The translations under genes and the position numbers were made by a program. The notes under the pieces were generated by a model. It had not been told where the DNA came from. It was given only the letters and a program-made list of their open reading frames with translations, and did not search any database. This document shows, piece by piece, positions 11,504 through 58,119 of a stretch of DNA of 64,000 nucleotides; the first letter of the stretch is position 1, and the number at the start of each line of letters is the position of its first letter. This DNA is from a virus. Where the stretch lies: positions 1 through 64,000 of the IMG/VR virus record IMGVR_UViG_3300033141_005269. One strand, given 5' to 3'.

Positions 11504-11767
11504 ATGATAAGAATTAAAAGTTTAGCTCGAGAATTAGACGCAGCAGTGATAACTATTGAATTCGATGATTCAGATGGCAACTTGCACGAAATAACGCATA
11601 AAGTGTCAGCTAGCTTGCTGAATAATATGACGGAAGAAGAAATAAAAAGGAAAATTAAGAATGTAGTCGCCATTAAGAGAATGAATTTAATCGAGACAAG
11701 CTTGCGCGAGAAACTCGAGAAAATGATGGGTGTTGATTTGGAGGCAGGTGAAAGTGCCGAGTTATGA
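11504..11767 (+). CDS. Hypothetical protein
   Basis: AGGTG SD; within the tail operon. Confidence 0.55.
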   Translation: MIRIKSLARELDAAVITIEFDDSDGNLHEITHKVSASLLNNMTEEEIKRKIKNVVAIKRMNLIETSLREKLEKMMGVDLEAGESAEL

Positions 11768-14700
11768 GTTAGCCCTTCCTCCGGGCACGAAGAACATTAA
11801 GATTAAAACTTCAACGCAAGAAATCCCAGTAGACTGGTCGTTTACTCGAGATGGTAAGGACGGAGCAGAGGTAATTGTGCCCCTCATGTCGGGCGACGAG
11901 TTCGTCGGTGAAGTCTTAGAAGGCAACTGGCTAAAAGGTGACGATGGAAGTATTCAAGGACCGTTCACGGCGAAGATAAATAATGGATACTTAGAGATGA
12001 CTGGGAGAAGCAATTCGGCAGGAACATATAGAAGTGGTTGGCTTTCCTCACAAAATAAGATACCACTACTCGATGACTTGATAATTGATATTCATCTCAA
12101 ACTGCCAAGCCATTCCTCTTCGGACGCCTTCGAATTTCAATTCTTGTTGTCGGATACTGGTCAAGGTTCTAATCCTGTTTCAAGTAACTATCTACGGGTG
12201 ATGATTCATACAGACACTTCTTCTTATAAGATTTATGCAGACAAAACAATAAATGGCGTTACTACTCGTCTAATAGATTATGTAACAGTTTCGAATTCAG
12301 AAGGCATCTTCCGGATAAAATTCGAAGAGAATAAAAGCGGACATTATCATACACATATTTATTATCATGATGGATCTGGTTCAGTAGATGAAACAACTGA
12401 TGAAGTCTCTGGAAGTCCATTTCAGCTTGGTCTATCTATATCATCAGCGTACCCCGCATTTAGATTTCCGATATCAGAAACAACCAATCGCACAGTCAGC
12501 AGCGACTTCGTTCGCGTCACCTATCCAGACTTCAAGGTTGTTTACGACTTAGACGACGATGCGGTTATTGGTGAAGGCGAAGAGTTACTCGAGAAGGCCT
12601 GGGATACATCAGGGAATGAGAACCATGGAACGGTGCATGAAGCGACGTGGCGAAGAGATGGGAAGTATGGAAAGGCGCTAGAATTTGACGGTGATGACTA
12701 CGTGGACATGGGTAATGCGTTATCCTCGATTGGAAGCTTTACTATTGAGGCATGGATAAAACCAGATGATATATCTGGCATCAAAACTATCGCAGGAAAA
12801 CTTTCTTATGGCGCCCTAACTGGTCAAGTTGAATGGGGACTTTATATTTGGAATGAAAGAATTGCAGTCAATATAGCGGATGGAACAGTTAGTAAACTAA
12901 GTTTTGCTGGTCAGTATTTAACAGTTGGTATCTGGCAGCATGTCGCAGTAACTTGGACTCAAGGAGGAACTGTTACTCTATATTTAAACGGGGAAGGAAC
13001 ATCCTCTAGCTATGCTGGAGGAACCCTTAATGATACAGAACCACTTAGAATCGGAGCGTCTAGCCCAAGTTTAGGGAATTATTTCGACGGCATCATCGAC
13101 GAGGTTCGCATCTACAACCGAGCCTTAAGCGAACCAGAAATCCAAACACTCTATAATGGCGGCGAAGTTACAAGCGGCTTGGTCGGCGAATGGCTTTTCG
13201 ACGGAGGCAACAATCGAGGCGAAGTCAAATGTTATTCGGAAGACACTGAAGTTTTAACTAGAAATGGCTTTAAACTTTTCAAAGACTTAACTTTCGAGGA
13301 TGAAATTGCGACACTAAATCCGAAAACTGGTTTGATCGAGTATCATGAACCGAGTAGAATAATTTCGTACTTCTATCATGGCAAAATGTATCGTTTTGGA
13401 GGCAAGAACTCTCCAATCGACTTGCTAGTAACGCCGGATCATAATATGTTCGTAAAGGAAGATCGCTGGAGCAAATATCGATTTATGGATGCCGAAGAAC
13501 TAGCTAAGAAAGCGCCATCGAAGCATTATTCTATAAAGAGAGATGCAAGATGGAAGGGAAAAGAGACTGAATGGTTTGAGCTTCCAATTCCAGAAATTAA
13601 GAAGAAAAGAACCTTCAAACCGAGAATTAAAAAGAAAGTTCCAATTGAATCCTTCCTAAGATTTTTGGGTTGGTATTTAGCTGAGGGCTGTGCAATAAAG
13701 CGAAAAGATGGAGCCTATGAAATTTACATAAGGCAGAAAGACCCCGCAAATGTAGAAGAAATAATCAACTCAGTGGAAGGAATGGGCTTTCATGCTTGGT
13801 ATGATGGGAAATATGTCCGAATAGGTTCAAAACAATTATTCAAATACGTGAAACAGTTCGGGAAATCCTATGAAAAATTTGTTCCGGGATTTATAAAAGA
13901 GCTTAGCCCACATCTGATTAAAATTTTCTTTGAAGCTTTGATGAAAGGCGATGGTCATTATCAAAATGGCAAACTTCGTTCCTTCACTACTACTTCTCCA
14001 AAACTTCGCGATGATGTTCAAGAACTCGCCTTGAAACTTGGAATTCCGGTGGTTATAAGAGAGCGTTCGGGAGAATATAATAAATCAATGGCGAAAGGGA
14101 AATGGAGCCAATTTAACTATCGAACTAGCTGGCAATTATCCTTCGCTACGAAACAACCTAATGCCAGAGCCACGAAAGTTGAGGAAGTTGAATACTCTGG
14201 AATGGTCTATGATGTTACGGTTCCAAATCATACATTATATGTTCGAAGAAATGGAAAGGCAGTTTGGTCGGGCAACTGCTACGACACAAACAACAGCGAT
14301 AATGAGTCTGAGTGGATTCGAGTCCTTGACGTGAACCATCAGTTTGAAGGAGACTGCGTAATAGAAAATGGGCTGATAAGGCTGTGGATAAATGAAGGAG
14401 CACATCAAGGTCTAAAATTCTATTGGTGGAATGGCTCATCGTGGACACTTCAAGTTAGTGATATTGGTATCAAAAGAACCAATGACTGCGATTATCCATT
14501 TCTGAAATCTATTAACTTCATTTCAACTGAATCTGCATGCCTGAATATACGACTAGAAGATTCGGCAACACAAGACAATGATTATTTTGTAGATATACAA
14601 ATAACCCTGAAAAGAGGAAGTTATGCCTTTGAAGTTGATTTTCAACAGGCTTATCCGAATGGTTCAATAGAACCAGACATCAGAGGGTTTGGCGGTGGAT

Positions 14701-15491
14701 TTGTTTATGTCCAAGATGACTTGATAGGCGGTGGAAAACTGAGTCTTACTGCGAATAATCCAACGATGACTGACAATTTCATAGCACAGTTTCTCGAAAC
14801 TGGAAATGCTATTCTATTCGTTGTGGCTGTAAACAAGAAACCTGCAGCAAGTAACCAGTGGTTCAGAAGTTGGACAGGAACAACAATAGAACTAGAAAAT
14901 ATTGATAGCAACGATATAGAAGCCACTAAAATGTATTTGGGACTTATTCCTTTCGCTTACGTTTCCAACCTGTTCAAGGAAGCCGAAAACGCAACGCTTG
15001 GCGGTGGAGCAACAGTTGATTCGTCACAGGGTGATGACAGTGGAGATTCGGTGTTGCTGGATGCACAAGGAAACTTTTTGACTGGAACGGGAGATTATGT
15101 ACATTATCAACTGGCTGACGTCCTCAACAAGCTACCAAAAGGTAGGTACCTTCTGTTTGTGAGAGCTAAGGACTCTGCACAGATAACTGACGATTTAAGG
15201 TTCTACGTTAGAAACACCACAGACAACCGCTACCTTAATGAAGAGAACGATAAGGTTACTAGGACCCTGACTGGTTCCTTCGCTTATTATGGTATCGTGT
15301 TCGATTTGACTGACGATGATTCCGGAGATACAGTGAGTTTCGTAGCAGAAAAGGCAACCACATCCACCAATAGCATTTGGGTCGACTACTTCCTCATCAT
15401 TCCAATTTCAAACGGCAGATCATGGGCACAGGATTTGGCACACGGAGCGTTACGAACGCTTACTCAAACACCAAAAGTTTATCCTCGATAA
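11730..15491 (+). CDS. Large tail/adsorption protein with a LamG domain, intein-containing (true start likely GTG 11748 or 11754)
   Basis: LamG motifs ALEFDGDDYV, FTIEAWIKP, WQHVAVT, FDGIIDEVRIYNRALS. Confidence 0.85.
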   Translation: MLIWRQVKVPSYELALPPGTKNIKIKTSTQEIPVDWSFTRDGKDGAEVIVPLMSGDEFVGEVLEGNWLKGDDGSIQGPFTAKINNGYLEMTGRSNSAGTYRSGWLSSQNKIPLLDDLIIDIHLKLPSHSSSDAFEFQFLLSDTGQGSNPVSSNYLRVMIHTDTSSYKIYADKTINGVTTRLIDYVTVSNSEGIFRIKFEENKSGHYHTHIYYHDGSGSVDETTDEVSGSPFQLGLSISSAYPAFRFPISETTNRTVSSDFVRVTYPDFKVVYDLDDDAVIGEGEELLEKAWDTSGNENHGTVHEATWRRDGKYGKALEFDGDDYVDMGNALSSIGSFTIEAWIKPDDISGIKTIAGKLSYGALTGQVEWGLYIWNERIAVNIADGTVSKLSFAGQYLTVGIWQHVAVTWTQGGTVTLYLNGEGTSSSYAGGTLNDTEPLRIGASSPSLGNYFDGIIDEVRIYNRALSEPEIQTLYNGGEVTSGLVGEWLFDGGNNRGEVKCYSEDTEVLTRNGFKLFKDLTFEDEIATLNPKTGLIEYHEPSRIISYFYHGKMYRFGGKNSPIDLLVTPDHNMFVKEDRWSKYRFMDAEELAKKAPSKHYSIKRDARWKGKETEWFELPIPEIKKKRTFKPRIKKKVPIESFLRFLGWYLAEGCAIKRKDGAYEIYIRQKDPANVEEIINSVEGMGFHAWYDGKYVRIGSKQLFKYVKQFGKSYEKFVPGFIKELSPHLIKIFFEALMKGDGHYQNGKLRSFTTTSPKLRDDVQELALKLGIPVVIRERSGEYNKSMAKGKWSQFNYRTSWQLSFATKQPNARATKVEEVEYSGMVYDVTVPNHTLYVRRNGKAVWSGNCYDTNNSDNESEWIRVLDVNHQFEGDCVIENGLIRLWINEGAHQGLKFYWWNGSSWTLQVSDIGIKRTNDCDYPFLKSINFISTESACLNIRLEDSATQDNDYFVDIQITLKRGSYAFEVDFQQAYPNGSIEPDIRGFGGGFVYVQDDLIGGGKLSLTANNPTMTDNFIAQFLETGNAILFVVAVNKKPAASNQWFRSWTGTTIELENIDSNDIEATKMYLGLIPFAYVSNLFKEAENATLGGGATVDSSQGDDSGDSVLLDAQGNFLTGTGDYVHYQLADVLNKLPKGRYLLFVRAKDSAQITDDLRFYVRNTTDNRYLNEENDKVTRTLTGSFAYYGIVFDLTDDDSGDTVSFVAEKATTSTNSIWVDYFLIIPISNGRSWAQDLAHGALRTLTQTPKVYPR
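13230..14276 (+). mobile_element. Intein with LAGLIDADG domain (349 aa)
   Basis: Starts CYSEDTEVLT; block B VTPDH; LGWYLAEG and LMKGDG; ends VYDVTVPNHTLYVRRNGKAVWSGN followed by Cys+1. Confidence 0.92.
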
Positions 15492-30493: not shown

Positions 30494-30846
30494 TTTTCAT
30501 CTCCAGATAAATTCTCGGAAATTAGAGCGAGTTCAAGCTCCTCATTTATTATTTTTAATTTATTAGCTACTTCCTCAGAGGATTTCGTTTCGAGGTCCTT
30601 TTCGAATAATTCCAAAAGCTCGTTATATTTCGTTGCCCAGGTAGCAGGAGATGACTTAAAGTTTGAACGCAAACTGTAGAATTTTAGAAGTTCCCGTCTG
30701 AAATCCTTCGAGTTTTGAATATGCTTTCGAACAAATTTCCTTAACTCTTGAATATGGCGCGGATCTTCTTCTGATACAAAAAACAAAACGAGTCCTTGCA
30801 TAAGTTCTGTTCTTATCTTAGCTAATCGTTCGCCCATCGAGTCCAT
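30490..30846 (-). CDS. Hypothetical protein
   Basis: Co-oriented ORF. Confidence 0.55.
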   Translation of the reverse strand: MDSMGERLAKIRTELMQGLVLFFVSEEDPRHIQELRKFVRKHIQNSKDFRRELLKFYSLRSNFKSSPATWATKYNELLELFEKDLETKSSEEVANKLKIINEELELALISENLSGDEK

Positions 30847-32128
30847 TTGGCAACTTGACCTCCATAAGAGTCAAAATTGTCGGCGTGATGTCCAATATGC
30901 TAGCTATTTGTTCGCCAGTTTTCGAAGCCGGCGAAACGCAATAAAAACCATTCATATCATGATCTGAGTAATTAAACTGTTGATAACGCCGCGTACCAAT
31001 TCGAACCCAATGAACGAAATATCCAGCTTTAGAATTGGGAAGACAGAGGATATCTGGCATGTATTTCAGATAAGGGCCGGACCAAACTTCATCTTTCCTA
31101 AAAATACCTTCGAAAGGCGAAGCATTAGTTGCTGGATCGAGCTCTGAGTTGAGAATATCGAATAAGGCATCATGAACGCTAGAATTTGTAACCTTATTAT
31201 GAAACCGATCATCATTAATGACTATCGCGCCTTGACCAACTGACCAAGCATACGTTTGGGTGAAATCAATTGAATCCAAGTCGAGATAAACTGGATATGT
31301 GAAGAAAAGCTCCCTAGCTTTGGATTTAAGCTGAATGAAACCCTTTTCGAGAAGCATTGTATTTAAATTAAAAGCTCGAGAAACGGGGTGCATACCATGA
31401 TCACTTGCTATAACAACATATTCCGGCTTAGTCGCTTCAATTAATTCTCCTATCGCATCATCGATTAATTTATGAGCCCAGCGTAAAAGAGGTTCGCCTT
31501 GTTTAAGATGCATCAACTGATGTTGTAGCCGATCGAGTATTAGAAATCCGATAAACGCGAAGTCATAATTATCTCCTCGAAGAAGCTTTAATGCAGTCGA
31601 TTTAATCAGTTGAGTCCGATCAAACCAATAGCGTGCATAGTCTTGCAAGTTATTGAAATCGCGGATATTTTTTTCCCATGGTATAAAACCCCATTTCGCT
31701 AAATCACCTTTAACCACTTCATCGCTTGCCCATTTATCACCTGTCGCGTCATAACTTGCAATTTGCACGCCATTGATTGGTTTAGCTGGGTAGGTCATCG
31801 GTAGATTAAAGACGAGGCATTTAAATCCTTCTCGAGATAGGATATCCCATACTCGATCGCCTACAAGCTTATCAGCCTTATCAAAGAACGTCATGCGGTA
31901 GTCTTGCCCGGTCGAATCGAAGCAAAACGATCGCGATTTACCCGGATTTAGACCTTGAAACATCGCGGGAAAACCAATCGAGGTTGTTGGCGGTGGAACA
32001 GTGCGCAAAATACCGCTTAAACCTTTTGAGCGTAGTTGCCCCAAATTTGGCATATACCGTGAAAATTGTTGAAAAGCAGAAAAGCTCGCAGCGTCAAGCG
32101 CTATAGCTAAGACTTTCATATTGAACAC
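30818..32128 (-). CDS. Alkaline phosphatase superfamily (type I phosphodiesterase-like) protein
   Basis: IALDA, TVPPTT, DRLQH, SDHG, DHDMNG, DITPTIL. Confidence 0.88.
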   Translation of the reverse strand: MFNMKVLAIALDAASFSAFQQFSRYMPNLGQLRSKGLSGILRTVPPPTTSIGFPAMFQGLNPGKSRSFCFDSTGQDYRMTFFDKADKLVGDRVWDILSREGFKCLVFNLPMTYPAKPINGVQIASYDATGDKWASDEVVKGDLAKWGFIPWEKNIRDFNNLQDYARYWFDRTQLIKSTALKLLRGDNYDFAFIGFLILDRLQHQLMHLKQGEPLLRWAHKLIDDAIGELIEATKPEYVVIASDHGMHPVSRAFNLNTMLLEKGFIQLKSKARELFFTYPVYLDLDSIDFTQTYAWSVGQGAIVINDDRFHNKVTNSSVHDALFDILNSELDPATNASPFEGIFRKDEVWSGPYLKYMPDILCLPNSKAGYFVHWVRIGTRRYQQFNYSDHDMNGFYCVSPASKTGEQIASILDITPTILTLMEVKLPNGLDGRTIS

Positions 32129-39600: not shown

Positions 39601-40746
39601 GACTTCCCAGCTATTATAGGACAACCTTCTAAAGTTATGATTCGGAAATGGTTTTGGATGATAGCTTTCGAGAAAATTATTCATCAACCTAATGAGTTTT
39701 ACTAATTGAGAATAGATTTCGATGAAGTCATCCAAATGCTTTAACCTCCAAAAAGCTCAGCGTCCTAAATTTTTCGCGAGAACTTGATATTGTAGAGATG
39801 AAAGCTTATCACAGTATTTCTGAACTTCTGGATTATCCTTAAAGTATTCGCGAATGCCGTTTAGAACATCTTCTGAAGGGAGTGTTGGACGCCTTTGCCT
39901 GCAGAGTGAATTATAAACACTTCGAAGGATTTTCACTATTGAGTTAGTCCCATCTTTCATTAAACGAGCGAATAAAGTCGAATTAGTGTATATAGAAGTG
40001 AGTGAAATCAGTTTTGCTATGTCAAGATATATGAGCTTTCCGGATTCGATGAGTTCGAGGAATTTAAGAATTGAAGTTTGGTACCCGCAGAATATCCAAG
40101 AACCTTGAATGACTAATCCGTAACTTGTTTCATAAGCTGATGTGTAAAATTTCAAAGAGATTGGAATGTCGTTGATTGTAAAGGAAATACCATTGTAATG
40201 AATTTCATCTATATCGATAGTAACCAAAAACAGAACCTCCAAAACGTAAGTTTAAGTTAATTTCCCCGCAACTATTTCAGCCCATAAATCAGCTAATTTT
40301 GGATGCTCGAGTATCAAATCTCGAAACCGAAAAAGTTCTCTATTTTCTTCTTCCAGCTCCTCGATTCTGTCTTCTGCGGCTTCGAGTTCGCTTTCGAGCT
40401 CCTCGCAATGTCTTTGTAAGTCTTTGAAACACTCACCGCATACAACAGCATCTTTTATCTCATATCCGCAATTATCACACCAAATTTTAACTTCAACGTC
40501 CAATTATTTCAACGCTCCGTAATTTCTGAGAGTTTGGAAACTAATCGTCCAAGAAGCGGGACGTCGAATAACCAGTCAGCTAAATAGAACCCAAATGAAT
40601 TACTGCGAAGCTTCAGTAATATGAAATGAAAGATGCAAACTCTAAACCAGCTGTTTTCAGTAAAAGCTTCAGCGAATGCTGGGAGATTGCATAAATCGCA
40701 TTGCCAATATCGAGTAAACATTTGATTTGCCTCCAAAAAGAAGGAG

Positions 40747-42946
40747 TTAATTTTCGTTATTGATTTCAACTTTGACGTAAACCCATCCTTGAGGCATTGG
40801 GTCTGGTCGTTGACCAGTTGAAACTAATACCGCGACAGAAGCCTTACTAGCAACATCTGAAAGTAATTGTTGAGTTTCCTCGTTATCCCAATCATAGATG
40901 TAAAAATCCGAGAAAATCACTACAATGTCCTTTGAACGCATTAAATTAATAACTCGACGTAGAACCGGAGCGACTTCAGTACCTCCGCCGCCACGAATAT
41001 GCGAAATTACCTTCTCGATTACGTCTTGTTGAGTTCGCCCTTCAATTGTTTCGTAAGCCGAAGAATCCCAGCAGATAACCGTAAATTCACATTTCCTCGC
41101 GATAGAATAAAGCTCTGTCATAGCTTGCGTGATTTCCGTATCAGACATCGAGCCACTCATATCTGGCAAGAAGAACACCTTGGGAATTGTATACCTGATT
41201 ATCCCTGGCAACGCTGGATGCTTGCGAGATGCTCGCCGATAACTTGAAACAACGGTTTTCCCAAGCCCAGTCATTATCGCTTGTCGAAGAATTGTTTCCC
41301 AGCTTACTTTCGAGTGTAGCATGCGGTCAATAACTCGTTTAAGTCCAGCTGGAACAGTACCCGCTAACTTCTGCGTGGAATAAGCTCGAATAACCCGGTC
41401 TCGCCATTTCTGCTCGAGGTCGTCTTCGGAGTTTTCTTGATTGTAAATTTCGGGGTCGCCTTCCTGCAAGACTTTGCCTTCGAGGTTATCATCGCCTTTG
41501 AGGTCATGAGTTAATCCATCTTCAATTTCATCGATTGGAATTTCAATCCCTTGTCCACCAGAACCTTTTTCGAACTGAACTTGTGAAGTCCACTCATGAC
41601 CACAAGAATCACATTTGAATTTAGCTTCGCCGTATTTAACTGAAAACTTCTTGATTCGAATTTGTTTGCTGCCACAAGCCGGGCATTTTGGAGCTCCGCC
41701 TGAAGGCATAGAAATTTTTGGGATTAAATCGTAAATTTCCTCTTTGCTCATTTTAGCTAAATCCTCTTCGTTATACTGAAACTTTTTGAAGAAATCATAG
41801 AACGCATTGAAAAACCGACGAATTGTCCAAGTCAGTCCGCTGAGCTGATATGGCGTTCGCAAGAAATCATCAATCATATCGTTGTTTAAAGAGTTTTGAC
41901 TCGCATATATCGCCATATTTTCTTATTATTTCTTTTCCTAAACTAAATTGGAATTCTGGATTTCGTTCTTGCCCCTGTTTATGCAGTTCCTTAAGAGCCC
42001 AGAAAATCCATTTAATTTCATCGGTTTCCCATGTCAAATTTCTAAGACGCTGTTTGCCTCGAATTTGAATCAAACGGTAAACTAGAAGGGCTTGAGGTTT
42101 TTTGATTATAAGAAAAGGAATTATTTGTTCTAAAATTGATTTTGAGCGAAACCAACTGACACATTCAAAGTTTAAATATAGATCTACTCCTTTGCCACGC
42201 TTTCTTCTTATTTTTCTGATTTTGAAACCAAATTTTCTTGAGATTTCTTTTCCAAAAAGGCTACTTTGTGTTATTCTAATTACAGGATGAGGGTATCGCT
42301 TGCCATTGACATTACTAAAGGTGATGGAAATCGTTCCATCTCCATCTATTAGTCCAGCTAAATAAGCTCTTTCGGTTTCTGAAAAGAGTTTTTCCTTGTC
42401 GATCCACCGTTTTTTCCAAATGTCTTCCATTGTCAATCTTCCGCTTAAACCTTTTCTATCAAGGAAACCTTTCAAAGTTGTCCAACGACAACCTAATTGT
42501 TTTGCAATATCATCTAATTTCATTACTCGATAATTTTCAAGAACGAATTTCTCCCGCTCGGGAGTCCAGAAAACCCGCTTTGATTTCATCTTATATCAAG
42601 AAATTATTACATAAATTCCCTAATAAGCCTTTCCTTTTGGCGACATAATGCGATCTGTCACAAGATTCCACATGAAATGATTTCGATGACCTGCTCGTTT
42701 GGCATCTCGGAAAGCAATATGCATTGTCTCATGTGCGAGAAGCCATGCTTTAGCATCAGATTGCAGATTAGCCCAGAATTTGGGATTAATTGCCATGATA
42801 TCGTTTCGAGTTACTCCAGCAGTAGGCACATCTTCGCTTAAGATTATGCGAACCCGGCGAAGTAAGCTTGAGATGAATGGAGCCACGACTGTTAAGGCTG
42901 AGCTAAACTCATCATAATCCTTTTTAATTCGCTCGAATAAATCCAA
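40747..42946 (-). CDS. HExxH metallopeptidase-like + VWA protein (DUF2201-like), spliced complement(join(40747..41894,42655..42946)), about 479 aa
   Basis: LAHETMH; junction WNLVT-D-SLNND; MIDAS DMSGSM, GGGGT, FSD; adjacent to the AAA gene. Confidence 0.85.
41870..42589 (-). CDS. Intron-encoded LAGLIDADG endonuclease with N-terminal HTH; linear stop lies in the downstream exon
   Basis: YLAGLIDGDG; IIPFLIIKKPQA. Confidence 0.9.
   Translation of the reverse strand: MKSKRVFWTPEREKFVLENYRVMKLDDIAKQLGCRWTTLKGFLDRKGLSGRLTMEDIWKKRWIDKEKLFSETERAYLAGLIDGDGTISITFSNVNGKRYPHPVIRITQSSLFGKEISRKFGFKIRKIRRKRGKGVDLYLNFECVSWFRSKSILEQIIPFLIIKKPQALLVYRLIQIRGKQRLRNLTWETDEIKWIFWALKELHKQGQERNPEFQFSLGKEIIRKYGDICESKLFKQRYD
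41895..42654 (-). other. 760-nt BHB intron in the VWA gene
   Basis: UGAC/GUCA central helix, bulges AGA and AAA, about 15-bp intron helix. Confidence 0.9.
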
Positions 42947-42972
42947 AAACGAATCCTCCAAAAAATTAAGGA

Positions 42973-45900
42973 TTAAGCTGCAATCGCATCTTTTAATCCA
43001 ATCGCTATTTTGCTGAGTGTTTTGCGATAATGAGGTTGGTGGAGTATCAACTGTTGAAGAAGTTTTATTAATTTCTGTCTTTTCATCGAAGTGCAAGTTA
43101 TGACCAGAAATTCAGTTCGCATGGAAGACATTACATCGATGAGCGGAAAAGCTTTCTTCATATCCTTCGCTTTGCTGAGCCAACTCGCGAGCATAATCGC
43201 ACTCATGTATTGAGCATCGAACGCCAAGTTACGAAAGCTTTCTGGTTTCTTGATTAATTCGTTTATGTTGACTTGAGTTTTCATGAACGCTTGAAATTTG
43301 GCTCCAACTTCTTGCCCAACATATCCTTTTATATCATCTGGTGAATCAAAGCCTTCTTTCAATTCGAGAGCGAGCCAAGACCATGTTATGCCGGAAGCTT
43401 ATAACTTCTCTCGGCACGGGATATGGGTCAAGTGTCTCGCGTCTTCTCGGTGGCATCATTAGATAATTTTCGTCCTGAAATGCTATTTCCCGGCTATAAA
43501 TGGTTTTCCCTTCTTTTTTGGCATTCATTCAAAAGTTTGAGAGCAACACCCTTTTTGATTTTAAGAAATGGAATTATCGACTCAAGAAAAATTATAATAT
43601 CGGTCATACGTTGAATTCGCCAGTTCCAACAAATGCCATATTTTCCATGTTTAGAACCATAAATGAATCCGCCGACCTTATCTTTCAGCCAAAGCATGAT
43701 TTCCTTATTTTTATTTGCAATTCCTAAATGGTGTTGATAGCCCTTTATTTTGTCGAAATGACAATAACCTTCTCCATCAAAAAGACCAGCAATATAGAGG
43801 AGATCATCTTTGGGCGGAATTTTGATTGTTTGTTCGAATAGTTTCGGTTTTCTAGTCTTTAGTCCAATACTTTCCAAATATTCAGAAATTATCTTTCGAT
43901 CGCGATGAAGAAATTTAGTAATTTGTCTTATCGTGAATCCTTTTGAATATAGTTTTCTAGCTTGCTCTTTTTCGGCATCTGAGAATTTTTTTCTTCGCCT
44001 TTTAATTTGATCCTCAAACTTCTTTAATACGCGAATTACAGTTGTAACCGCGCAACCAGATCTTTTAGCGATTTCCTCTAACGAAAGACCCTTTCTATAA
44101 AGTCTAAGGATCGATTGATTACGCCTCGAAATTTCTGATCTTTTCTCTTTGGAAAGTTTCGGACTTCTTCTCATTTCATTTGGTAGAGTTTTCAAAATTC
44201 GCGAAAGAGTAGAATGACCGATACCATATTTAGAAAGAATCTTTTTCCATTTAATTCCATTGATGTAATCGGAAACTATTGCTTTTCGGGTGTCCTCAGA
44301 TAACTTCATTATTGCCACAATAATAAAAGAGGGAAAACTCACTTATAAACCTGTAGGAAAGCATATGTTCGCTTGTCCCAAGCATCGCCATATTTCTCAT
44401 CCATCCACTTCCGCCAGTCATCTCAGCGGTTATAAGGAAAAGCCCACATATTCTTCTATTTCATTTATGACCATGGAAACTTTATCGCGTTTAATAACCA
44501 GATAAGGAAGAATTAGCTTCAAGATTTTGCCTACTTCAAGAAGAGGGTATTTCGCCCAAGCATAAACATTCTTTTTGGAGGTATATCCCGCTATTTGCTT
44601 GCCCTTTGGATCGGAAATTGTTATTCCGCCACCAAATCTACTTACTAGCCAAGACATGATATCTTTTGATGTATTATAAACAGAGAGTCTGACTTCTAAA
44701 GTTTCTTTTTTCCAACGTTTCCGTCGTTGAGTTACTAACGAACCCTCGCCATCGAATAAACCTGCAAAGTAAATTAAATCTTTTTCTGGAATATTATTCC
44801 TCATCACTGGATGTTTGAATCGATGGCGGGTTATTCCATGCTTTTCAAGAATATATAAAATCGTAGTGTTCGAGACTCCAAGTTGACGCGCAACCTCTTT
44901 GGCATTATGGCAAGCTAAATAAAGGCGAATTACTTCCTCTTCATTAAGTTTAGATTTAAATTTTTTCGCTCGGAGTTTCCATGACATCTATTTCAACCAT
45001 AAGAAAGTAGTGGGCGGTAACTTATAACCTTTACTGTTGGTGGTTGGATGCGAATGATTTTAAATCGCGAGGCTAACGGGGCAGAAATTAAATGTGCAAT
45101 GCTGGAATGTTCAGGGGCATTGCCCGCTGCGATAACCATAGTTCCAGAACTGAATTGAACAAAGCCCGCTAGATGGTCAAGAATTACTGGATAGCTAGCA
45201 GCTTCGACATCGGGCCTATTAATTTGTGTGAATTCGTCCGCGAATAGTATTCCAGAAGTGCATGAATGCAACACAGCCCAAGCGATTCGCCGGAAGGCTA
45301 AACCTCAGCCAAATTTTCTATTATAATACTCGACTAGGATAGGATACTTTTCTTCAAGAAATCTTATTACTTTTTCCGCTTGCTTTCGCTTTACGATTAG
45401 ATATGGCAAAACCGATTTTAGAATGATGTAAGCCTTGAACCGATCATAAGTTTGCCAATGATAAACTATTTCTTGATGGAAAGAATAAGGCTTTGAGGCG
45501 TAATAATTAGATCCAAATTTCTTCTTCAGCCATTCAGCTAACTCTTTCGAGGTATTTGCAACTCGCACGCCTATTCGCCTTTGATAATCCCGTCCCTTCC
45601 ATTTATCGAATTTGATATTGCCATCAGCATCAAGCATACCCGCAAAATAAATTAAGGAATCTTTGTCTGGTAACTCGAAATTTTTAATAAACGGTCTTCT
45701 CGTCTTCGGCTTAATCAAGCCAAGTCTAATTGCTGTCATCCTTACACAAGCGGAAGAACATCCTATAATCTCTGCAATTTGTTTATAAGTTAAATTCGAA
45801 GTAATTAAGAACTCCTTGATTTTGTTTACTTTGAACTTATCTAGTCGGTTCATAATAGGAAATATAGCCTCATGGGATTTAAACCCTCCTGTGGCTCGTA

Positions 45901-46239
45901 GAATGAAGTATGATTATGGCTTCTGGGAATGCCTATCAAATCCTCTGGGGCAATTGTTGATAAGCGGATATCAGTTAGCACGAAGTAATTATCTGGCGCG
46001 TTCAATATTTCGAAGAACTCTTTTTCTCCATCGTGAGAAATCACGAACTTGCCTTGTTTCCAACGCAATCGCATGCATATGAACTTCTTGCCGAGTTTTT
46101 GTGCGATTTGTTCCGCGGCTTCATAAACCGAAATTGATTTCCCGATTCCTGGCGCACCTAGTACGAGCAAAGCTCGTCGCCTTGCTACTTCACTGAAATA
46201 TCTTCTGACTATATAATTCCGAAGCTCGGAAATCCTCAT
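42973..46239 (-). CDS. MoxR-like AAA+ ATPase in five exons (45891..46239, 45031..45285, 44353..44421, 43410..43485, 42973..43387), 387 aa
   Basis: GAPGIGKS, DLIGIP, ILFADEF, AAGN, LASRF, PVPRTW; exons sum to 1164 nt = 388 codons. Confidence 0.9.
43388..43409 (-). other. 22-nt BHB intron 4 of the AAA gene
   Basis: GCCG/CGGC helix, bulges AGA and AUA, hairpin GAAGUU-AUA-AGCUUC. Confidence 0.88.
43486..44352 (-). other. 867-nt BHB intron 3 of the AAA gene
   Basis: UCCU/GGGA helix, bulges ACA and AAU, long intron stem; junction AFL-L-AFQ. Confidence 0.85.
43494..44318 (-). CDS. Intron-encoded LAGLIDADG endonuclease with tandem N-terminal HTH repeats (start GTG 44318 or ATG 44309)
   Basis: YIAGLFDGEG; three HTH-like segments. 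Confidence 0.88.
   Translation of the reverse strand: MAIMKLSEDTRKAIVSDYINGIKWKKILSKYGIGHSTLSRILKTLPNEMRRSPKLSKEKRSEISRRNQSILRLYRKGLSLEEIAKRSGCAVTTVIRVLKKFEDQIKRRRKKFSDAEKEQARKLYSKGFTIRQITKFLHRDRKIISEYLESIGLKTRKPKLFEQTIKIPPKDDLLYIAGLFDGEGYCHFDKIKGYQHHLGIANKNKEIMLWLKDKVGGFIYGSKHGKYGICWNWRIQRMTDIIIFLESIIPFLKIKKGVALKLLNECQKRRENHL
44422..45030 (-). other. 609-nt BHB intron 2 of the AAA gene
   Basis: CAGU/GCUG helix, bulges AAA and AGA, perfect GGUUAUAAG/CUUAUAACC stem; junction PPTV-N-DW. Confidence 0.9.
44430..44987 (-). CDS. Intron-encoded HTH-LAGLIDADG endonuclease
   Basis: YFAGLFDGEG; ILPYLVIKR. Confidence 0.9.
   Translation of the reverse strand: MSWKLRAKKFKSKLNEEEVIRLYLACHNAKEVARQLGVSNTTILYILEKHGITRHRFKHPVMRNNIPEKDLIYFAGLFDGEGSLVTQRRKRWKKETLEVRLSVYNTSKDIMSWLVSRFGGGITISDPKGKQIAGYTSKKNVYAWAKYPLLEVGKILKLILPYLVIKRDKVSMVINEIEEYVGFSL
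45286..45890 (-). other. 605-nt relaxed BHB intron 1 of the AAA gene
   Basis: AGCC/GGCG helix with one A-G mismatch, bulges ACA and AAU, GGAGGG/CCUUCC stem; junction YEP-L-AW. Confidence 0.8.
45305..45853 (-). CDS. Intron-encoded HTH-LAGLIDADG endonuclease
   Basis: YFAGMLDADG; VLPYLIVKRKQA. Confidence 0.9.
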   Translation of the reverse strand: MNRLDKFKVNKIKEFLITSNLTYKQIAEIIGCSSACVRMTAIRLGLIKPKTRRPFIKNFELPDKDSLIYFAGMLDADGNIKFDKWKGRDYQRRIGVRVANTSKELAEWLKKKFGSNYYASKPYSFHQEIVYHWQTYDRFKAYIILKSVLPYLIVKRKQAEKVIRFLEEKYPILVEYYNRKFG

Positions 46240-46263
46240 GTTAATCCTCCAAAAATTCGAGAG

Positions 46264-46992
46264 TTACTTCAAGGCTTTACTCAATCGATACGGCGCAACC
46301 ACATCTTCCATTTGTTGGATTATTGCGTTATTATGCTCGCGAATATCTTTTACTTGCTGGTCAGCTAATTTGAAAAGCTCAACTAACTCATCGATAAACT
46401 GAGAAGCAAAATGAATATCGCTGTAATAGTTAATATGAAAGCTTTTCGAGAAGCTTCGATTGGAATAAATCTCTATTCTTGATGGTGTATTTGTTTCGAG
46501 TTTAATTGCAGAAACTTCGAGAGGAGTTAGTCTGAATGAACGAGAAAGAGAATAATCGAAAACCTTCTTTACTTCTGGTAGTTTATAAATTACTTCATTA
46601 TCAGATGGTCGTTTTATCTGCTTTGTAAGCTTCACTAACTTATCGAAGTCTTCCATAATGCTTTTGCGAAGATGTGGAAGAATCTGGTCTCCGTACTTGA
46701 TGATAAATTCGATGAAATCGGTGTAAAGATTTCTTCCATAAGTATACCAGCTGGTCTTAGCTCGGAACCAAGTACCAATTGCCAGACGAGTAGGACGCCA
46801 ACCTTCATCGAGCTCAATTTGAGTTACTGTATATTTTCTGCGAAGCGGTTTAAGTGATTCAAACGCAAATTTAGTTCGCGAATAAATCATGTTTTCAAGT
46901 AAGCGAGTGTTAACCTTTTCTGCAGTTTCGAGTATGAAAACGAGTTTTGGTTTAATTTCCCGAAGATGTTGAATTATCATGAAAACCTCCAA
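46264..46992 (-). CDS. Hypothetical protein (start likely ATG 46980)
   Basis: Long ORF immediately upstream of the AAA gene. Confidence 0.65.
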   Translation of the reverse strand: MEVFMIIQHLREIKPKLVFILETAEKVNTRLLENMIYSRTKFAFESLKPLRRKYTVTQIELDEGWRPTRLAIGTWFRAKTSWYTYGRNLYTDFIEFIIKYGDQILPHLRKSIMEDFDKLVKLTKQIKRPSDNEVIYKLPEVKKVFDYSLSRSFRLTPLEVSAIKLETNTPSRIEIYSNRSFSKSFHINYYSDIHFASQFIDELVELFKLADQQVKDIREHNNAIIQQMEDVVAPYRLSKALK

Positions 46993-54382: not shown

Positions 54383-55618
54383 GTGAGTGAGTTGAAACAG
54401 GTTGTTTTGATAAACTTACCAAGTCCATTTTTGATTGATGATCAGGTGATGCCTCCACTTGGTCTGCTTTACATTTCGAGTTATTTGAAGAAGCATAAAG
54501 TTTCAGTTGAAGTTATCGATCTATCTGGGGGAGAAAAGTTTCCATCGATTAATGCGGATTGGATTGGAATATCTGCTACAACGCCACAGTATGAGGAAGC
54601 CTTGAGAATATTAACGAAGATTAAAGCGAGAAATCGATATCAGAGAGTTATTATAGGCGGACCTCATGCGACATGCATGGGCGAAAAATTACTCTTCGAT
54701 GGATTCGATGGAGTTGTAATAGGCGAGGGGGAACGGGCAATGTATAAAATAGTTTGCTTCGGAAACGATGTTTTGCCAGTAGTCCAAGAACCAGAAATTG
54801 AAGATTTAGATATTTTACCGTTTCCAGATCGAGAAGCGATTAATTTGGAAAAATACAAATACTTTATAGACGACGAACGAGCAACAACGATGATTACCTC
54901 GAGAGGGTGCCCCTTTCATTGTGCGTTTTGTTCCCATACCTGGGAATCAGTGCGATTTAGGAGCGCTGGGAACGTGCTCGCAGAAGTCGATGAAATACAG
55001 AAAAAGTTTGGGTACAACGCGATAATGTTCTATGACGATAATTTTACTTTGAACATCTCGAGGTTGAAAAAGATTTGCAAAGGCTTGAAAAAACGCGGTG
55101 TGAAATGGCGATGTTTGGTTAGAGCGAATTTAGTTAATGAAGAATTATTAAAGAGGATGAGAAAGAGTGGATGCGTCGAAATATTAGCAGGCTTGGAGTC
55201 AATGGACCAAGATATCTTAAATGGAATAAATAAGGGAACGACTGTGGAACAAAATTATGAAGTTACCAGGCTTGCAAGGAAAGCCGGTTTGCGTTTCAAG
55301 GCATTATTAATGATTGGATTGCCAGGAGAGAGTCACGAGAGCGTGGAGAAGATTCGAGAGTATTTGGAGAAAATGCAACCAGATGATTTCGACTTAACGA
55401 TTTACACACCTTATCCAAAGAGCTTAATTTGGGAATTCCCTGAAATGTTCGATATTAAGATAGACTACGAGAAACTTGGTTGGTATAAGGGTAGAATTGG
55501 AGAGTATAGGTGCGCCGTGAGCACTTCGAAATTAAGAAGCGATGAAATTGTAAGATTGCGTGATGAAATCGAGAAAGAATTCAGCTACCTCAAGAAAAGT
55601 AATAAAACATTCTATTAA
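54383..55618 (+). CDS. B12-binding radical SAM protein
   Basis: PPLGLLY, GGPHAT, TSRGCPFHCAFC, YDDNF. Confidence 0.92.
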   Translation: MSELKQVVLINLPSPFLIDDQVMPPLGLLYISSYLKKHKVSVEVIDLSGGEKFPSINADWIGISATTPQYEEALRILTKIKARNRYQRVIIGGPHATCMGEKLLFDGFDGVVIGEGERAMYKIVCFGNDVLPVVQEPEIEDLDILPFPDREAINLEKYKYFIDDERATTMITSRGCPFHCAFCSHTWESVRFRSAGNVLAEVDEIQKKFGYNAIMFYDDNFTLNISRLKKICKGLKKRGVKWRCLVRANLVNEELLKRMRKSGCVEILAGLESMDQDILNGINKGTTVEQNYEVTRLARKAGLRFKALLMIGLPGESHESVEKIREYLEKMQPDDFDLTIYTPYPKSLIWEFPEMFDIKIDYEKLGWYKGRIGEYRCAVSTSKLRSDEIVRLRDEIEKEFSYLKKSNKTFY

Positions 55619-56448
55619 AAATAGCCTAGAGCGCGTAGAGTTTCCATTAGATATTTTTCTTTCTCGGTATGTCGACCAGCACGCTCCGAAGTTTTGGTTT
55701 TTTCGATTTCTTTAATTATCTCATCGACTGTTTTTGCGTTTGAACGAATTGGTTTTGAGCATGGCCAGCAACCCAGGCTACGATATCTCCAACTATCTTT
55801 TGAGAAATAGAGTGGGTTAACTGGCAAGTTTCTGGATTTGATATAGCGCCAAACATCCAACTCAGTCCAATGAAGAAGCGGATGCACGCGAACATGATTA
55901 CAGTTGGAACCGAAATCTGAGGCATATAAATCCCAAAGCTCTGCGTCTTGGAGCGCTTCATAATTACTATCGGAATTTGGCGATATTATCGTTTTTTGCT
56001 GATAAACTTTCCAACGCCAGTTTTCATCTCGTGGCGACATAACTCGTTCCTTACTCCGAATGGCATGTTCGTCGCGTCGAATTGAAACCATTAGAGCATC
56101 GAGTTTGTTCTGTTCTACTACTTGTTTAAGCGCTGTCATTTTGTGCTCGGTGCAACATTGTTGAACTGAGTTCTGGAACGGGTTAACCTTGGAATCCGAC
56201 TTCGCGATGATTAACTTTAACTTCCAATCAGAAGCAATTTGATCTCTGAAGTCTAAAAGCTCTTGAAAGTGGAAACCTGTGTCGATATGAATTACCGGGA
56301 ATGGAATTGTTCCGAAGAAAGCTTCTCGAACAAGAGAAAGTAAGGTCGTGGAGTCCTTGCCAGTACTCCAAAGAACTGCAATGTTTTCGAACTTTGCATT
56401 TGCCTCTCGAATTATGTAAATTGATTTTTCGACTAGATCGTCAAGCAA
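55615..56448 (-). CDS. cysD: Sulfate adenylyltransferase subunit 2 / PAPS reductase family
   Basis: WSTGKDS, HIDTG, IRRDEH..RSKER, RVHPLLHWTE, YRSLGC, LRALGYF. Confidence 0.75.
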   Translation of the reverse strand: MLDDLVEKSIYIIREANAKFENIAVLWSTGKDSTTLLSLVREAFFGTIPFPVIHIDTGFHFQELLDFRDQIASDWKLKLIIAKSDSKVNPFQNSVQQCCTEHKMTALKQVVEQNKLDALMVSIRRDEHAIRSKERVMSPRDENWRWKVYQQKTIISPNSDSNYEALQDAELWDLYASDFGSNCNHVRVHPLLHWTELDVWRYIKSRNLPVNPLYFSKDSWRYRSLGCWPCSKPIRSNAKTVDEIIKEIEKTKTSERAGRHTEKEKYLMETLRALGYF

Positions 56449-56454
56449 AGTTAA

Positions 56455-57062
56455 TCACTTCCCCAAAGAAAGGACTATCCCGCACAGCTCACTGCAAATT
56501 GGCACGAAAGAATCGTGATTAGAATCGTAATACCATTTGAGTTTATCTAGCGGAATTTCTTTTCCGCAGATAGCACAGATAAATTTTATTCCCTTGGGAG
56601 GTAATACAGGACCGGTCGCCGACACCCCCGAGGAGAAAAATTGATATTCCAAATTACCCCCTCCCCAGTCTATATGCAACTTCACATGTTTCAGAACAGA
56701 AAACAAGGAAAGTACGTCTTTTTTCATCGTAGTATATTCTGTACGGATGTCCTACAATTATACATTTGCAATTTTTACAAATCCAAGGCGAAAAAACATC
56801 TTTTAATTGATCAGTGTAATCTATAATTTTTTTCACGCCCCAAATTGTAAACAATTTCACAGAGTTCCGAACAAGTAGCTTTTCGTGAGAACTCGAGATA
56901 TTTTTCATATGGCAAATTCACAAAGCATATAGCTTTGCCGCAAATAACACAGCAGATTATTCCAGATACTGTTGTTATTGATTCAGTGCTTAGTGTTTGT
57001 TGATTAGGAGTCCAATTAATTACTACACTCATTTTGCTCGAAAAACTCCTTAACCTTTTCAA
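56455..57062 (-). other. Three tandem TRASH-like Zn-finger ORFs
   Basis: CxxC..CSELC, CSETC and CSELC. Confidence 0.6.
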
Positions 57063-58119
57063 TTATGAAATTTTGCTCTTCTTTAAACATTTCGGGGAAA
57101 AGTGGTAAACTCAATAATTCGCGAGATGCTTGTTCAGCAATTGGCAAATCACCAGGTTTATAGTTAAGATGTTTATATGAAGGTTGTAAATGTGAAGGAG
57201 TTGGAAAATGAATACCAGTTTGTATACCAGCTTTTTCGAGGAAAATTTTAAGCTGATCACGTAACGGAGTGCGAATGGCGTAGAGGTAGAAAACATGCTT
57301 AGCCCAAGGAGCTTCGTATGGAGTGACAACCAATTTATTTAAATGTTGGGTGTATCGCTGCGCGAGTTGCCTTCGTTTCGAAATCCACTTGTTGACGTGG
57401 TCCAGTTTTACTGAGAGGATTGCAGCTTGCAAAGCATCTAGGCGACTATTATAGCCTATGCAAACATGATGATCACGCTTAATCTGTCCATACTCACGAA
57501 GAATTCGCGCCCGCTTAGCGATTTCTGGATCAGAAGTAACTATTGCTCCGCCATCGCCGTAACACCCGAGAACCTTGGTTGGATAGAATGAATAACAAAC
57601 TGCATTGCCAAAATGTCCGAGTTTAAATCCTTCGAAGGTTGAGCCGAGGGCTTGTGCAGCATCGAAAATTATTTTTGTATCATCATCCAAAGCATTAAAG
57701 ATCGAAAGAATATCTGCTGGATGGCCGAATAAGTGAACTGGTATCACGGCTTTAATCTTTAAGCTGATAAGATGTTTTGCGTTTAGGGTTAAAGTTTTTG
57801 GCTCAACGTCCAGTAGGAGTGGGTGAGCGCCAAGACGTGGAATACAATCAACTGTCGATATCCAAGAATTAGGGACAGTCGCTACTTTATCATCGGTTGA
57901 AATGCCACAAGCTCGAAGAGCTATGAGTAGAGCATCTGTGCCACTGTTAACTCCAATTGCATAGCTTGCGCCAACTGCTCGTGCGAATTGTTCCTCGAAG
58001 TCCTCAAGAAACTTGCCCTTGATGAAGTGACCGCTTTGGAGAACTTCTTTAATTGCCGAATCAATCTCGTCTTTAATTTCCTGATATTGTCTTGTTAGAT
58101 CGCAAAGTGGAATTTGCAT
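57016..58119 (-). CDS. DegT/DnrJ/EryC1 sugar aminotransferase
   Basis: NSGTDAL, PVHLFG, DAAQA, SFYPTKVLGCYGDGG, GYNSRLD. Confidence 0.93.
   Translation of the reverse strand: MQIPLCDLTRQYQEIKDEIDSAIKEVLQSGHFIKGKFLEDFEEQFARAVGASYAIGVNSGTDALLIALRACGISTDDKVATVPNSWISTVDCIPRLGAHPLLLDVEPKTLTLNAKHLISLKIKAVIPVHLFGHPADILSIFNALDDDTKIIFDAAQALGSTFEGFKLGHFGNAVCYSFYPTKVLGCYGDGGAIVTSDPEIAKRARILREYGQIKRDHHVCIGYNSRLDALQAAILSVKLDHVNKWISKRRQLAQRYTQHLNKLVVTPYEAPWAKHVFYLYAIRTPLRDQLKIFLEKAGIQTGIHFPTPSHLQPSYKHLNYKPGDLPIAEQASRELLSLPLFPEMFKEEQNFIIEKVKEFFEQNECSN

What the first reader, a model, noticed from the sequence alone, without database searches (positions are those of the whole stretch)
41870..42654. Intron endonuclease ORF that closes only on the circularised intron, using 759 of 760 nt
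Seen: the BHB intron just after the HExxH motif (join WNLVT-D-SLNND) holds a LAGLIDADG ORF with no stop inside the intron. In pre-mRNA the ORF ends at 41870 in the exon. If the intron ends are ligated, the frame continues ES-K-SHYVAKRKGLLGNLCNNFLI to TAA at 42593-42591, one base before its own ATG (42589), giving 252 aa. Established: excised archaeal BHB introns circularise, and I-DmoI has different linear and circular forms. Inference: this is a protein-coding circular RNA with two C-terminal isoforms.
Basis: partly seen in the sequence, partly recalled or inferred. Interest (0 to 1): 0.85.

Follow-up and report, generated by a model that had tools for sequence, protein, structure and literature searches.

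The report
Endonuclease intron in viral peptidase gene
A tailed archaeal virus has a peptidase gene interrupted by a 760-base protein-spliced (tRNA-type) intron that carries its own DNA-cutting enzyme gene; the fact that this gene would close almost exactly on the circular form of the intron is real arithmetic but looks like coincidence.

Summary
A 760-nt insert (42654..41895, minus strand) splits codon D98 of a DUF2201 metallopeptidase/VWA gene. Its LAGLIDADG ORF has no stop inside the insert. It ends in exon 2 (239 aa) or, on a ligated circle, at TAA one base before its own ATG (252 aa).

The insert is very probably a bulge-helix-bulge (BHB) intron:
- A 4-bp helix lies between two 3-nt bulges, closed by a 14-bp intron stem.
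- The predicted cuts give a gapless WNLVTDSLNND join that matches uninterrupted homologs.
- The same architecture recurs in the neighbouring MoxR gene and in related metagenome contigs.

The record is a 77-kb tailed virus without EndA or RtcB, so splicing would depend on the host.

I found nothing to support the circle-closing as a selected feature:
- The chance of an exact closure is about 1.5%, and of an open frame 16-40%.
- Five of nine comparable endonuclease introns stop inside the intron.
- A near-identical sister contig implies a 74-nt frame-shifting deletion in this ORF.
- The predicted I-CreI-like fold ends before the junction.
- There is no Shine-Dalgarno site.

No RNA data were available. 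An endonuclease-bearing BHB intron in a viral protein-coding gene appears undescribed. This scan's first readers noted the same intron set in this genome, but it had not been followed up.

The parts
42655..42946 (-). Exon 1 of the DUF2201 metallopeptidase/VWA gene (TTG start at 42946, HETMH motif, ends ...WNLVT + G of the D98 codon). A GGAGG Shine-Dalgarno site lies at 42955-42959.
   Evidence: Pfam DUF2201_N E=1.2e-8. N-terminus and motif align with intact homologs. SD.
41895..42654 (-). 760-nt BHB intron
   Evidence: The BHB-predicted cut sites coincide exactly with the homology-defined junction. The end-to-end stem is present in the MFE and centroid of the 861-nt fold. No ribozyme family matched.
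42654..42660 (-). 5' half of the BHB core: central-helix strand UGAC (42660-42657, in exon 1) and the 3-nt bulge AG|A (42656-42654). The cut falls between 42655 and 42654.
42638..42653 (-). Intron-side stem, 5' strand (UCGCAUUAUGUCGCC). It pairs with 41901-41914.
41894..41914 (-). 3' half of the BHB: stem strand GGCGAUAUAUGCGA (41914-41901), central-helix strand GUCA (41900-41897) and bulge AA|A (41896-41894). The cut falls between 41895 and 41894. The exon-side helix next to this bulge is missing (1 bp), so the motif is relaxed.
41870..42589 (-). Endonuclease ORF as read on unspliced RNA: 239 aa, an N-terminal HTH followed by a single LAGLIDGDG motif (I-CreI-like). The last 7 residues (LFKQRYD) come from exon 2 read out of frame.
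42591..42653 (-). Intron leader read as the circle-specific tail (SHYVAKRKGLLGNLCNNFLI + TAA 42593-42591). The TAA is one base before ATG 42589.
42620..42622 (-). TAG where the exon-1 reading frame ends on unspliced RNA, 30 nt before the endonuclease ATG
40747..41894 (-). Exon 2: the rest of the DUF2201_N domain, a zinc ribbon and the VWA-like domain
   Evidence: Pfam. 220 homologs, the intact ones 460-485 aa long.

Best explanation
This is a mobile archaeal-type (bulge-helix-bulge) intron in a protein-coding gene of a tailed archaeal virus. It sits inside codon D98 of the conserved WNxVTDxxNND motif of a DUF2201 metallopeptidase/VWA protein, the partner of the neighbouring MoxR ATPase. It is almost filled by a gene for an HTH plus single-motif, I-CreI-like LAGLIDADG homing endonuclease. 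Inferred mechanism: the host tRNA-splicing endonuclease cuts after the second nucleotide of each 3-nt bulge, and the host RtcB ligase joins the exons into a 479-aa reading frame. The ligase probably also closes the intron into a circle. The endonuclease cuts intron-less alleles in co-infecting relatives and so spreads the intron. The endonuclease ORF has lost, or never had, a stop inside the intron. Its last residues therefore depend on the template: 7 exon-derived residues on unspliced RNA, or 20 leader-derived residues on a circle. Both tails lie beyond the folded domain. The near-perfect closure on the circle (759 of 760 nt) is most likely incidental rather than selected. Shown here: the sequence anatomy, the fold prediction, the homology-defined junction and the recurrence of such introns. 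Inferred: splicing, circularisation, homing, and which RNA is translated.
For: 1. BHB structure. The central helix UGAC/GUCA lies between 3-nt bulges, next to a 14-bp intron stem. The structure survives in the MFE and centroid of the 861-nt fold and in the circular fold. A motif this good occurs at 6.2e-5 of arbitrary site pairs in this genome, and it is the best such pair within +/-12 nt of the junction (the only two others have a 3-4-bp intron stem).
2. Junction. The predicted cuts give a join that aligns without a gap to 17 uninterrupted homologs at the conserved motif and to intron-less DNA alleles.
3. Cut rule. The same rule reconciles reading frames at five other interruptions of homologous genes (L016 28 nt, L042 35 nt, L043 65 nt, L035/L046 686 nt) and at four introns of the adjacent MoxR gene. 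All show the same strong inner stem and weak exon-side helix.
4. Not a ribozyme. No group I or II ribozyme was found, and the ORF leaves only 40 nt unused.
5. Endonuclease. It has a LAGLIDGDG motif. The family profile hits I-CreI at E=2e-12. The AF2 model matches the whole I-CreI chain with TM 0.67.
6. Host dependence. The record is a tailed virus with terminase, portal and tape measure and no EndA or RtcB.
7. Closure looks incidental:
- Five of nine endonuclease introns stop 8-36 nt before the 3' site, and four run 25-41 nt into exon 2.
- The sister contig implies a 74-nt frame-shifting deletion in this ORF.
- Residues 232-239 have pLDDT below 50, while the fold is ordered to about residue 228.
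- There is no SD before the ATG, whereas the host gene and the adjacent MoxR gene both carry a GGAGG Shine-Dalgarno site.
Against: There is no RNA evidence for splicing or circles. The exon-side helix next to the 3' bulge is only 1 bp, so the motif is relaxed and needs a tolerant endonuclease, and the host and its enzyme type are unknown. The exact stop-1nt-start arrangement has only about a 1.5% chance probability. Four of nine related introns lack an in-intron stop, so use of the circle as a template is not excluded. The sister-contig deletion is inferred from called proteins, not from DNA I could read. The single-sequence Pfam scores of the endonuclease are below the gathering cut-offs (19.5 against 22.5 bits).
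Confidence: 0.7

Rival explanations
1. One reading: the excised circular intron is the real mRNA, the ORF is built to close on the circle, and the 239-aa and 252-aa forms are two functional isoforms.
For: The arithmetic is exact, and exact closure has about a 1.5% chance probability. The TAA-G-ATG stretch is single-stranded in the predicted circular fold. Three further related introns (L035-a/L046, L043-a, L043-b) also lack in-intron stops and stay open across the junction for 8-24 codons. Reviews credit archaeal circular introns with endonuclease production (PMC5387670, PMC6538810).
Against: No SD precedes the ATG, and a circle has no 5' end for leaderless initiation. Five of nine comparable introns, including all three in the neighbouring gene, stop inside the intron. 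The sister contig implies a 74-nt deletion that shifts the junction frame and would give a different tail. The tails lie outside the predicted fold. In the other three run-through introns the circle stops at unrelated positions, not before the start.
Confidence: 0.12
2. There is no splicing. A free-standing homing endonuclease gene inserted into the peptidase gene and split it into two separately translated halves that reassemble, as in the phage Aeh1 nrdA genes-in-pieces case (from my own knowledge).
For: The exon-1 frame ends at a TAG 11 codons into the insert. An in-frame ATG (41916) lies 7 codons before exon 2, so gene callers produce a 389-aa C-terminal product.
Against: The insert ends coincide exactly with BHB cut sites. 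ATG 41916 has no SD. The break falls inside the DUF2201_N domain. Frame-shifting mini-inserts of 22-65 nt with the same motif, in this gene family and in the MoxR gene, cannot be explained by endonuclease insertion.
Confidence: 0.06
3. The gene is simply inactivated by a selfish insertion (a pseudogene), and the BHB-like pairing is fortuitous or left over.
For: The sister contig carries several indels in and around this gene: 74, 51 and 40 nt.
Against: Both exons are intact and conserved, with no other stops or frameshifts. The BHB coincidence is about 6e-5 per site pair. The partner MoxR gene is restored by the same rule.
Confidence: 0.05
4. It is a self-splicing group I or group II intron.
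For: LAGLIDADG genes are common in group I introns.
Against: No Rfam intron family matched at the gathering threshold or at E<=1. Only 40 nt lie outside the ORF, too little for a ribozyme core.
Confidence: 0.01

Closest known systems
Endonuclease-bearing BHB introns of crenarchaeal rRNA genes (the Desulfurococcus mobilis 23S intron with I-DmoI; 16S introns with I-Vdi141I)
   Same: Protein-spliced BHB boundaries. The intron is nearly filled by a LAGLIDADG gene. Circular excision is expected, and the endonuclease may be made from excised intron RNA. I-Vdi141I (3e54) appears among the structural matches.
   Different: The host gene here is a translated viral protein-coding gene, not rRNA, so unspliced RNA is itself a possible template. 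The endonuclease is I-CreI-like with an extra HTH domain. The ORF runs through the 3' splice site.
Archaeal pre-mRNA BHB introns in cbf5 (Aeropyrum, Sulfolobales, Desulfurococcales)
   Same: A BHB intron in a protein-coding gene, often with a relaxed motif, removed by the tRNA-splicing endonuclease.
   Different: The cbf5 introns are 16-44 bp and 'too short to encode such a nuclease' (PMC2738675). This one is 760 nt with an endonuclease gene, and it is viral.
I-CreI / I-MsoI homodimeric LAGLIDADG homing endonucleases (group I intron-encoded)
   Same: A single LAGLIDADG motif. The profile E-value is 2e-12 and the predicted fold covers the whole I-CreI chain.
   Different: About 20% identity. 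An N-terminal HTH extension of about 70 aa is added. The gene is carried by a BHB intron rather than a ribozyme intron. Activity is untested.
Phage genes split by free-standing homing endonuclease genes (Aeh1 nrdA/mobE; from my own knowledge)
   Same: A viral gene interrupted by an endonuclease ORF, with a stop and a start flanking the insert.
   Different: Here the boundaries form a splice motif and give a seamless in-frame join.

Membership tests
Archaeal BHB (tRNA-type, protein-spliced) intron | A 4-bp central helix flanked by two 3-nt bulges on opposite strands | tested here: met
   UGAC/GUCA with bulges AGA and AAA. Kept in the 861-nt MFE and centroid.
Archaeal BHB (tRNA-type, protein-spliced) intron | Flanking helices on both sides (strict hBHBh') | tested here: inconclusive
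   The intron-side helix is strong (6 contiguous bp, 14 with one bulge). The exon-side helix next to the 3' bulge is 1 bp, with only a distant exon-exon pairing. This is the relaxed form. The related introns show the same pattern.
Archaeal BHB (tRNA-type, protein-spliced) intron | Cutting after bulge nucleotide 2 restores the functional product | tested here: met
   Gapless WNLVTDSLNND against 17 homologs and 7 intron-less DNA alleles. The rule also fits the frame changes at 5 other sites.
Archaeal BHB (tRNA-type, protein-spliced) intron | Splicing endonuclease (EndA) and RtcB ligase available | not testable with these tools
   The virus encodes neither. The host is unknown; the only cellular-genome relative is a short Methanomethylicaceae MAG contig.
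Archaeal BHB (tRNA-type, protein-spliced) intron | Spliced and circular RNA observed | not testable with these tools
   No sequencing run was listed.
LAGLIDADG homing endonuclease, I-CreI-like | LAGLIDADG motif with the catalytic acidic residue | tested here: met
   YLAGLIDGDG, with G79, D82 and G85 invariant in the alignment.
LAGLIDADG homing endonuclease, I-CreI-like | Family profile match and fold | tested here: met
   The single sequence is below the Pfam cut-offs (19.5 against 22.5 bits). The 10-sequence profile hits I-CreI at 2e-12. The AF2 model (pLDDT 76.7) matches I-CreI with TMt 0.67.
LAGLIDADG homing endonuclease, I-CreI-like | Cleaves the intron-less allele | not testable with these tools
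   Needs an enzyme assay.
Translated circular intron RNA (as reported for I-DmoI) | A complete ORF on the circle | tested here: met
   252 codons plus stop within 760 nt.
Translated circular intron RNA (as reported for I-DmoI) | An internal ribosome entry signal (SD) before the start | tested here: not met
   No GGAGG-like motif in -22..-4, unlike the host gene and the adjacent MoxR gene.
Translated circular intron RNA (as reported for I-DmoI) | The junction-spanning frame is conserved in homologous introns | tested here: not met
   The sister contig implies a frame-shifting 74-nt deletion. Five of nine related introns stop inside the intron, and the other run-through introns stop at unrelated places.
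Group I / II self-splicing intron | A ribozyme core detectable by covariance model | tested here: not met
   No match.

The most novel reading that the evidence does not exclude
The circle is a self-coupled mRNA. Its stop (TAA) lies one base before its own ATG, the same kind of stop-start abutment that links the upstream exon frame to the endonuclease start in the neighbouring introns (ATGA and GTGA overlaps). A terminating ribosome could therefore re-initiate on the same circle and make endonuclease repeatedly without a Shine-Dalgarno site or a 5' end.
Probability: 0.06. Interest if true: 0.85.

Novelty: new variant of a known kind. Interest (0 to 1): 0.55.

Why it matters
Protein-spliced BHB introns are known in tRNA and rRNA genes. 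In protein-coding genes they are known only as tiny cbf5 introns without an ORF. An endonuclease-bearing, apparently mobile BHB intron inside a translated viral gene, as one of many in related viruses, would show two things. This intron class can colonise mRNAs, and archaeal viruses rely on the host tRNA-splicing machinery to express genes. It also gives a tractable case for asking which RNA (unspliced, linear or circular) is the template for an intron-encoded protein, because here the three give distinguishable C-termini. The specific 759-of-760 closure adds little unless RNA or protein data show that the circle is translated.

Tried and rejected
- Public sequencing runs for 40700-46300: none was listed, and no RNA holder was listed.
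I could not read the contigs of the closest homologs (P0009, P0027) or the 76,608-nt sister contig.
- An exact-pattern scan of viral contigs for the inferred deletion junction found nothing.
- Single-protein scans of viral contigs with the endonuclease, exon 2 and P0027 found no relatives.
- The endonuclease has only five distant relatives (about 35% identity) among 5.8 billion proteins, apart from its own cluster. No second copy of this particular intron was found.
- None of 51 metagenome loci has an insert at codon 98.
- I tested whether the three sister-contig deletions (74, 51 and 40 nt) are themselves BHB mini-introns. They are not.
- A DGDG-like string in the circle-frame leader of the L035 intron looked like a permuted LAGLIDADG motif. 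It merely overlaps the real N-terminal HTH frame, so I rejected it.
- The sub-threshold RAGATH-33 hit (24 bits against a 120-bit gathering score) is chance.
- The primary I-DmoI paper (PMID 8390663, PMC46730) is not held.
- Literature searches for BHB introns in archaeal virus protein genes returned nothing relevant.

Full report
**What is there.** The window is the first 64 kb of a 77,415-bp IMG/VR virus record with direct terminal repeats. The record encodes a large terminase, a Mu-type portal and a tape-measure protein, so it is a tailed virus. On the minus strand, a gene with a perfect GGAGG Shine-Dalgarno site and a TTG start at 42946 encodes the N-terminus of a DUF2201 metallopeptidase, including the HETMH motif. 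After ...WNLVT the frame runs into a stop. The rest of the DUF2201_N domain, a zinc ribbon and the VWA-like domain resume at 41894. Between them lie 760 nt that contain a 239-codon ORF with an HTH region and a LAGLIDGDG motif.

**Check of the observation.** reproduces every number:
- The intron is 42654..41895.
- The join is WNLVT-D-SLNND, with the D codon split G|AC.
- The ATG is at 42589.
- The linear ORF is 239 aa and ends at 41870, 25 nt into exon 2.
- On a ligated circle the frame continues K-SHYVAKRKGLLGNLCNNFLI to TAA 42593-42591, then G, then the ATG.
- That gives 252 codons plus stop, or 759 of 760 nt.

The junction codon is AAA in both forms, so the isoforms differ only after residue 232: 7 residues against 20.

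**Is it an intron, and of what kind?** Short constructs fold into a textbook core. Exon-1 UGAC (42660-42657) pairs with intron-3' GUCA (41900-41897). A 3-nt bulge AG|A lies on one strand and AA|A on the other, and a 14-bp stem joins the two intron ends. The same structure closes the intron in the MFE and the centroid of the whole 861-nt region.

A motif at least this good (4/4 central pairs plus 6 or more stem pairs) occurs at 6.2e-5 of arbitrary site pairs in this genome. It is the best such pair within +/-12 nt of the junction (the only two others have a 3-4-bp intron stem). Independently, 17 uninterrupted homologs of 460-485 aa align to the predicted spliced protein without a gap across the conserved WNxVTDxxNND motif. 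Seven intron-less DNA alleles align codon for codon. No Rfam ribozyme family matches, and the ORF leaves only 40 nt free.

The exon-side helix next to the 3' bulge is essentially absent (1 bp), so this is a relaxed motif.

**The cut rule is validated elsewhere.** 'Cut after bulge nucleotide 2' works in other places too.
- In related metagenome contigs, the homologous gene is interrupted at other positions by inserts of 28 nt (L016), 35 nt (L042), 65 nt (L043) and 686 nt (L035 and L046, identical).
- Each has a 4-bp core, A-rich bulges, a strong inner stem and a weak exon helix.
- Each has a length that exactly accounts for the tblastn frame change.
- The adjacent MoxR ATPase gene is restored by four such introns (605, 609, 867 and 22 nt), as an earlier first-reader note (e1-6082882) had suggested.

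The virus encodes neither EndA nor RtcB, so splicing must be done by the host. The only cellular-genome relative of the gene is on a short Methanomethylicaceae MAG contig. That is a weak hint about the host.

**The endonuclease.** A profile of the protein with its paralogs and distant relatives hits I-CreI at E=2e-12. The AlphaFold model (mean pLDDT 76.7) superposes on the entire I-CreI chain with TM 0.67, and it also matches the archaeal intron enzyme I-Vdi141I. The model is ordered to about residue 228, while residues 232-239 have pLDDT below 50. The folded enzyme is therefore complete before the splice junction, and both alternative tails are appendages.

**Is the circle-closing meaningful?** I applied five tests.
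1. Chance. The 21 post-junction codons stay open in 16% of leader shuffles and in 40% of genome windows. A first stop at exactly the last codon occurs in 1.4-1.7%.
2. Comparable introns. I examined nine endonuclease-bearing BHB introns: four in this virus and five in loci L006, L035 and L043. Five have their stop 8-36 nt before the 3' site, including all three in the MoxR gene. Four run 25-41 nt into exon 2. In the three other run-through cases the circle frame stops 8-24 codons after the junction, at unrelated places. Run-through is therefore common, but closure just before the start is unique to this intron.
3. The only true homologue. A 76,608-bp sister contig is visible only through its called proteins. 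P0001 (209 aa) is reproduced exactly by deleting 41988-41915 (74 nt) from this ORF. That deletion shifts the frame at the junction and would give a different tail on a 686-nt circle. P0129 shows two more indels in exon 2. None of these deletions has BHB ends.
4. Initiation. The host gene and the MoxR gene have GGAGG sites, but none of the intron endonuclease genes does. In MoxR introns 1 and 3 the upstream exon frame stops overlapping the endonuclease start (ATGA, GTGA), and in intron 2 it stops 5 nt before. This suggests termination-reinitiation on unspliced RNA. In the present intron the gap is 30 nt. A circle offers neither a 5' end nor an SD.
5. RNA data. None could be obtained.

**Conclusion.** The object is best read as a mobile, endonuclease-bearing BHB intron in a viral protein-coding gene, spliced by host enzymes. 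The dependence of the endonuclease C-terminus on the template is real, but probably neutral. The exact closure on the circle is most likely coincidence.

A small residual possibility remains. TAA-G-ATG may act as a stop-start coupling signal on the circle, allowing repeated translation. The stretch is single-stranded in the predicted circular fold.

**Known context.** Circularisation of BHB introns, and endonuclease production from circular introns, are credited to Kjems & Garrett 1988 and Dalgaard 1993 in PMC5387670 and PMC6538810. The known mRNA BHB introns (cbf5) are 16-44 bp and 'too short to encode such a nuclease' (PMC2738675). That paper mentions only unproven 12-bp putative introns in an archaeal virus. 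My searches found no description of endonuclease-bearing BHB introns in protein genes or in archaeal viruses. The class of object therefore appears to be a new variant, while the specific circle claim remains unproven.

Noticed in passing
window 43388-45891 (minus strand): The adjacent MoxR-like AAA+ gene is restored by four BHB introns: 45890..45286 (605 nt), 45030..44422 (609 nt), 44352..43486 (867 nt) and 43409..43388 (22 nt). Three carry HTH+LAGLIDADG genes whose stops lie 8-19 nt before the 3' splice site.
   Followed up: partly
window 45850-45853, 44339-44342, 44987-44995: In MoxR introns 1 and 3 the upstream exon reading frame ends overlapping the endonuclease start (ATGA, GTGA). In intron 2 it ends 5 nt before the start. 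None has a Shine-Dalgarno site. This looks like termination-reinitiation coupling on unspliced RNA.
   Followed up: partly
window 41915-41988, 41492-41542, 40745-40784: A near-identical 76,608-bp sister contig, seen only through proteins P0001 and P0129, implies deletions of 74, 51 and 40 nt here. The 40-nt deletion fuses this gene to the downstream 86-aa ORF. None has BHB ends.
   Followed up: partly
L035:381-1066 and L046:1468-2153: An identical 686-nt BHB intron (GCUG/CAGC core) sits at codon 283 of the homologous gene in two metagenome samples. Its HTH+LAGLIDADG gene is frame-shifted between the HTH part and the nuclease part, and it also runs 30 nt into exon 2.
   Followed up: partly
L016:5422-5449; L042:333-367; L043:10480-10544: ORF-less mini-introns of 28, 35 and 65 nt with perfect 4-bp cores interrupt homologs of this gene at other codons (about 268 and 322-329).
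   Followed up: partly
L043:7380-7987 and 8443-9138; L035:2919-3675; L006:3447-4045: Further candidate endonuclease-bearing BHB introns lie in neighbouring (MoxR-like) genes of related contigs. The L006 intron sits at the same site, and has the same core, as MoxR intron 1 of this virus.
   Followed up: partly
window 11730-15491 (+): A 1253-aa Laminin_G_3 (lectin-like, probably tail fibre) protein has a LAGLIDADG_3 domain at residues 733-783. It may be an intein.
   Followed up: no
window 4078-4869 (+): A free-standing LAGLIDADG gene, paralogous to the intron endonucleases, has an SD-like GAGG upstream.
   Followed up: no
window 54383-58119: A B12-binding radical SAM enzyme and a DegT/DnrJ-type aminotransferase are unusual cargo for a tailed virus. 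A type I phosphodiesterase lies at 30818-32128.
   Followed up: no
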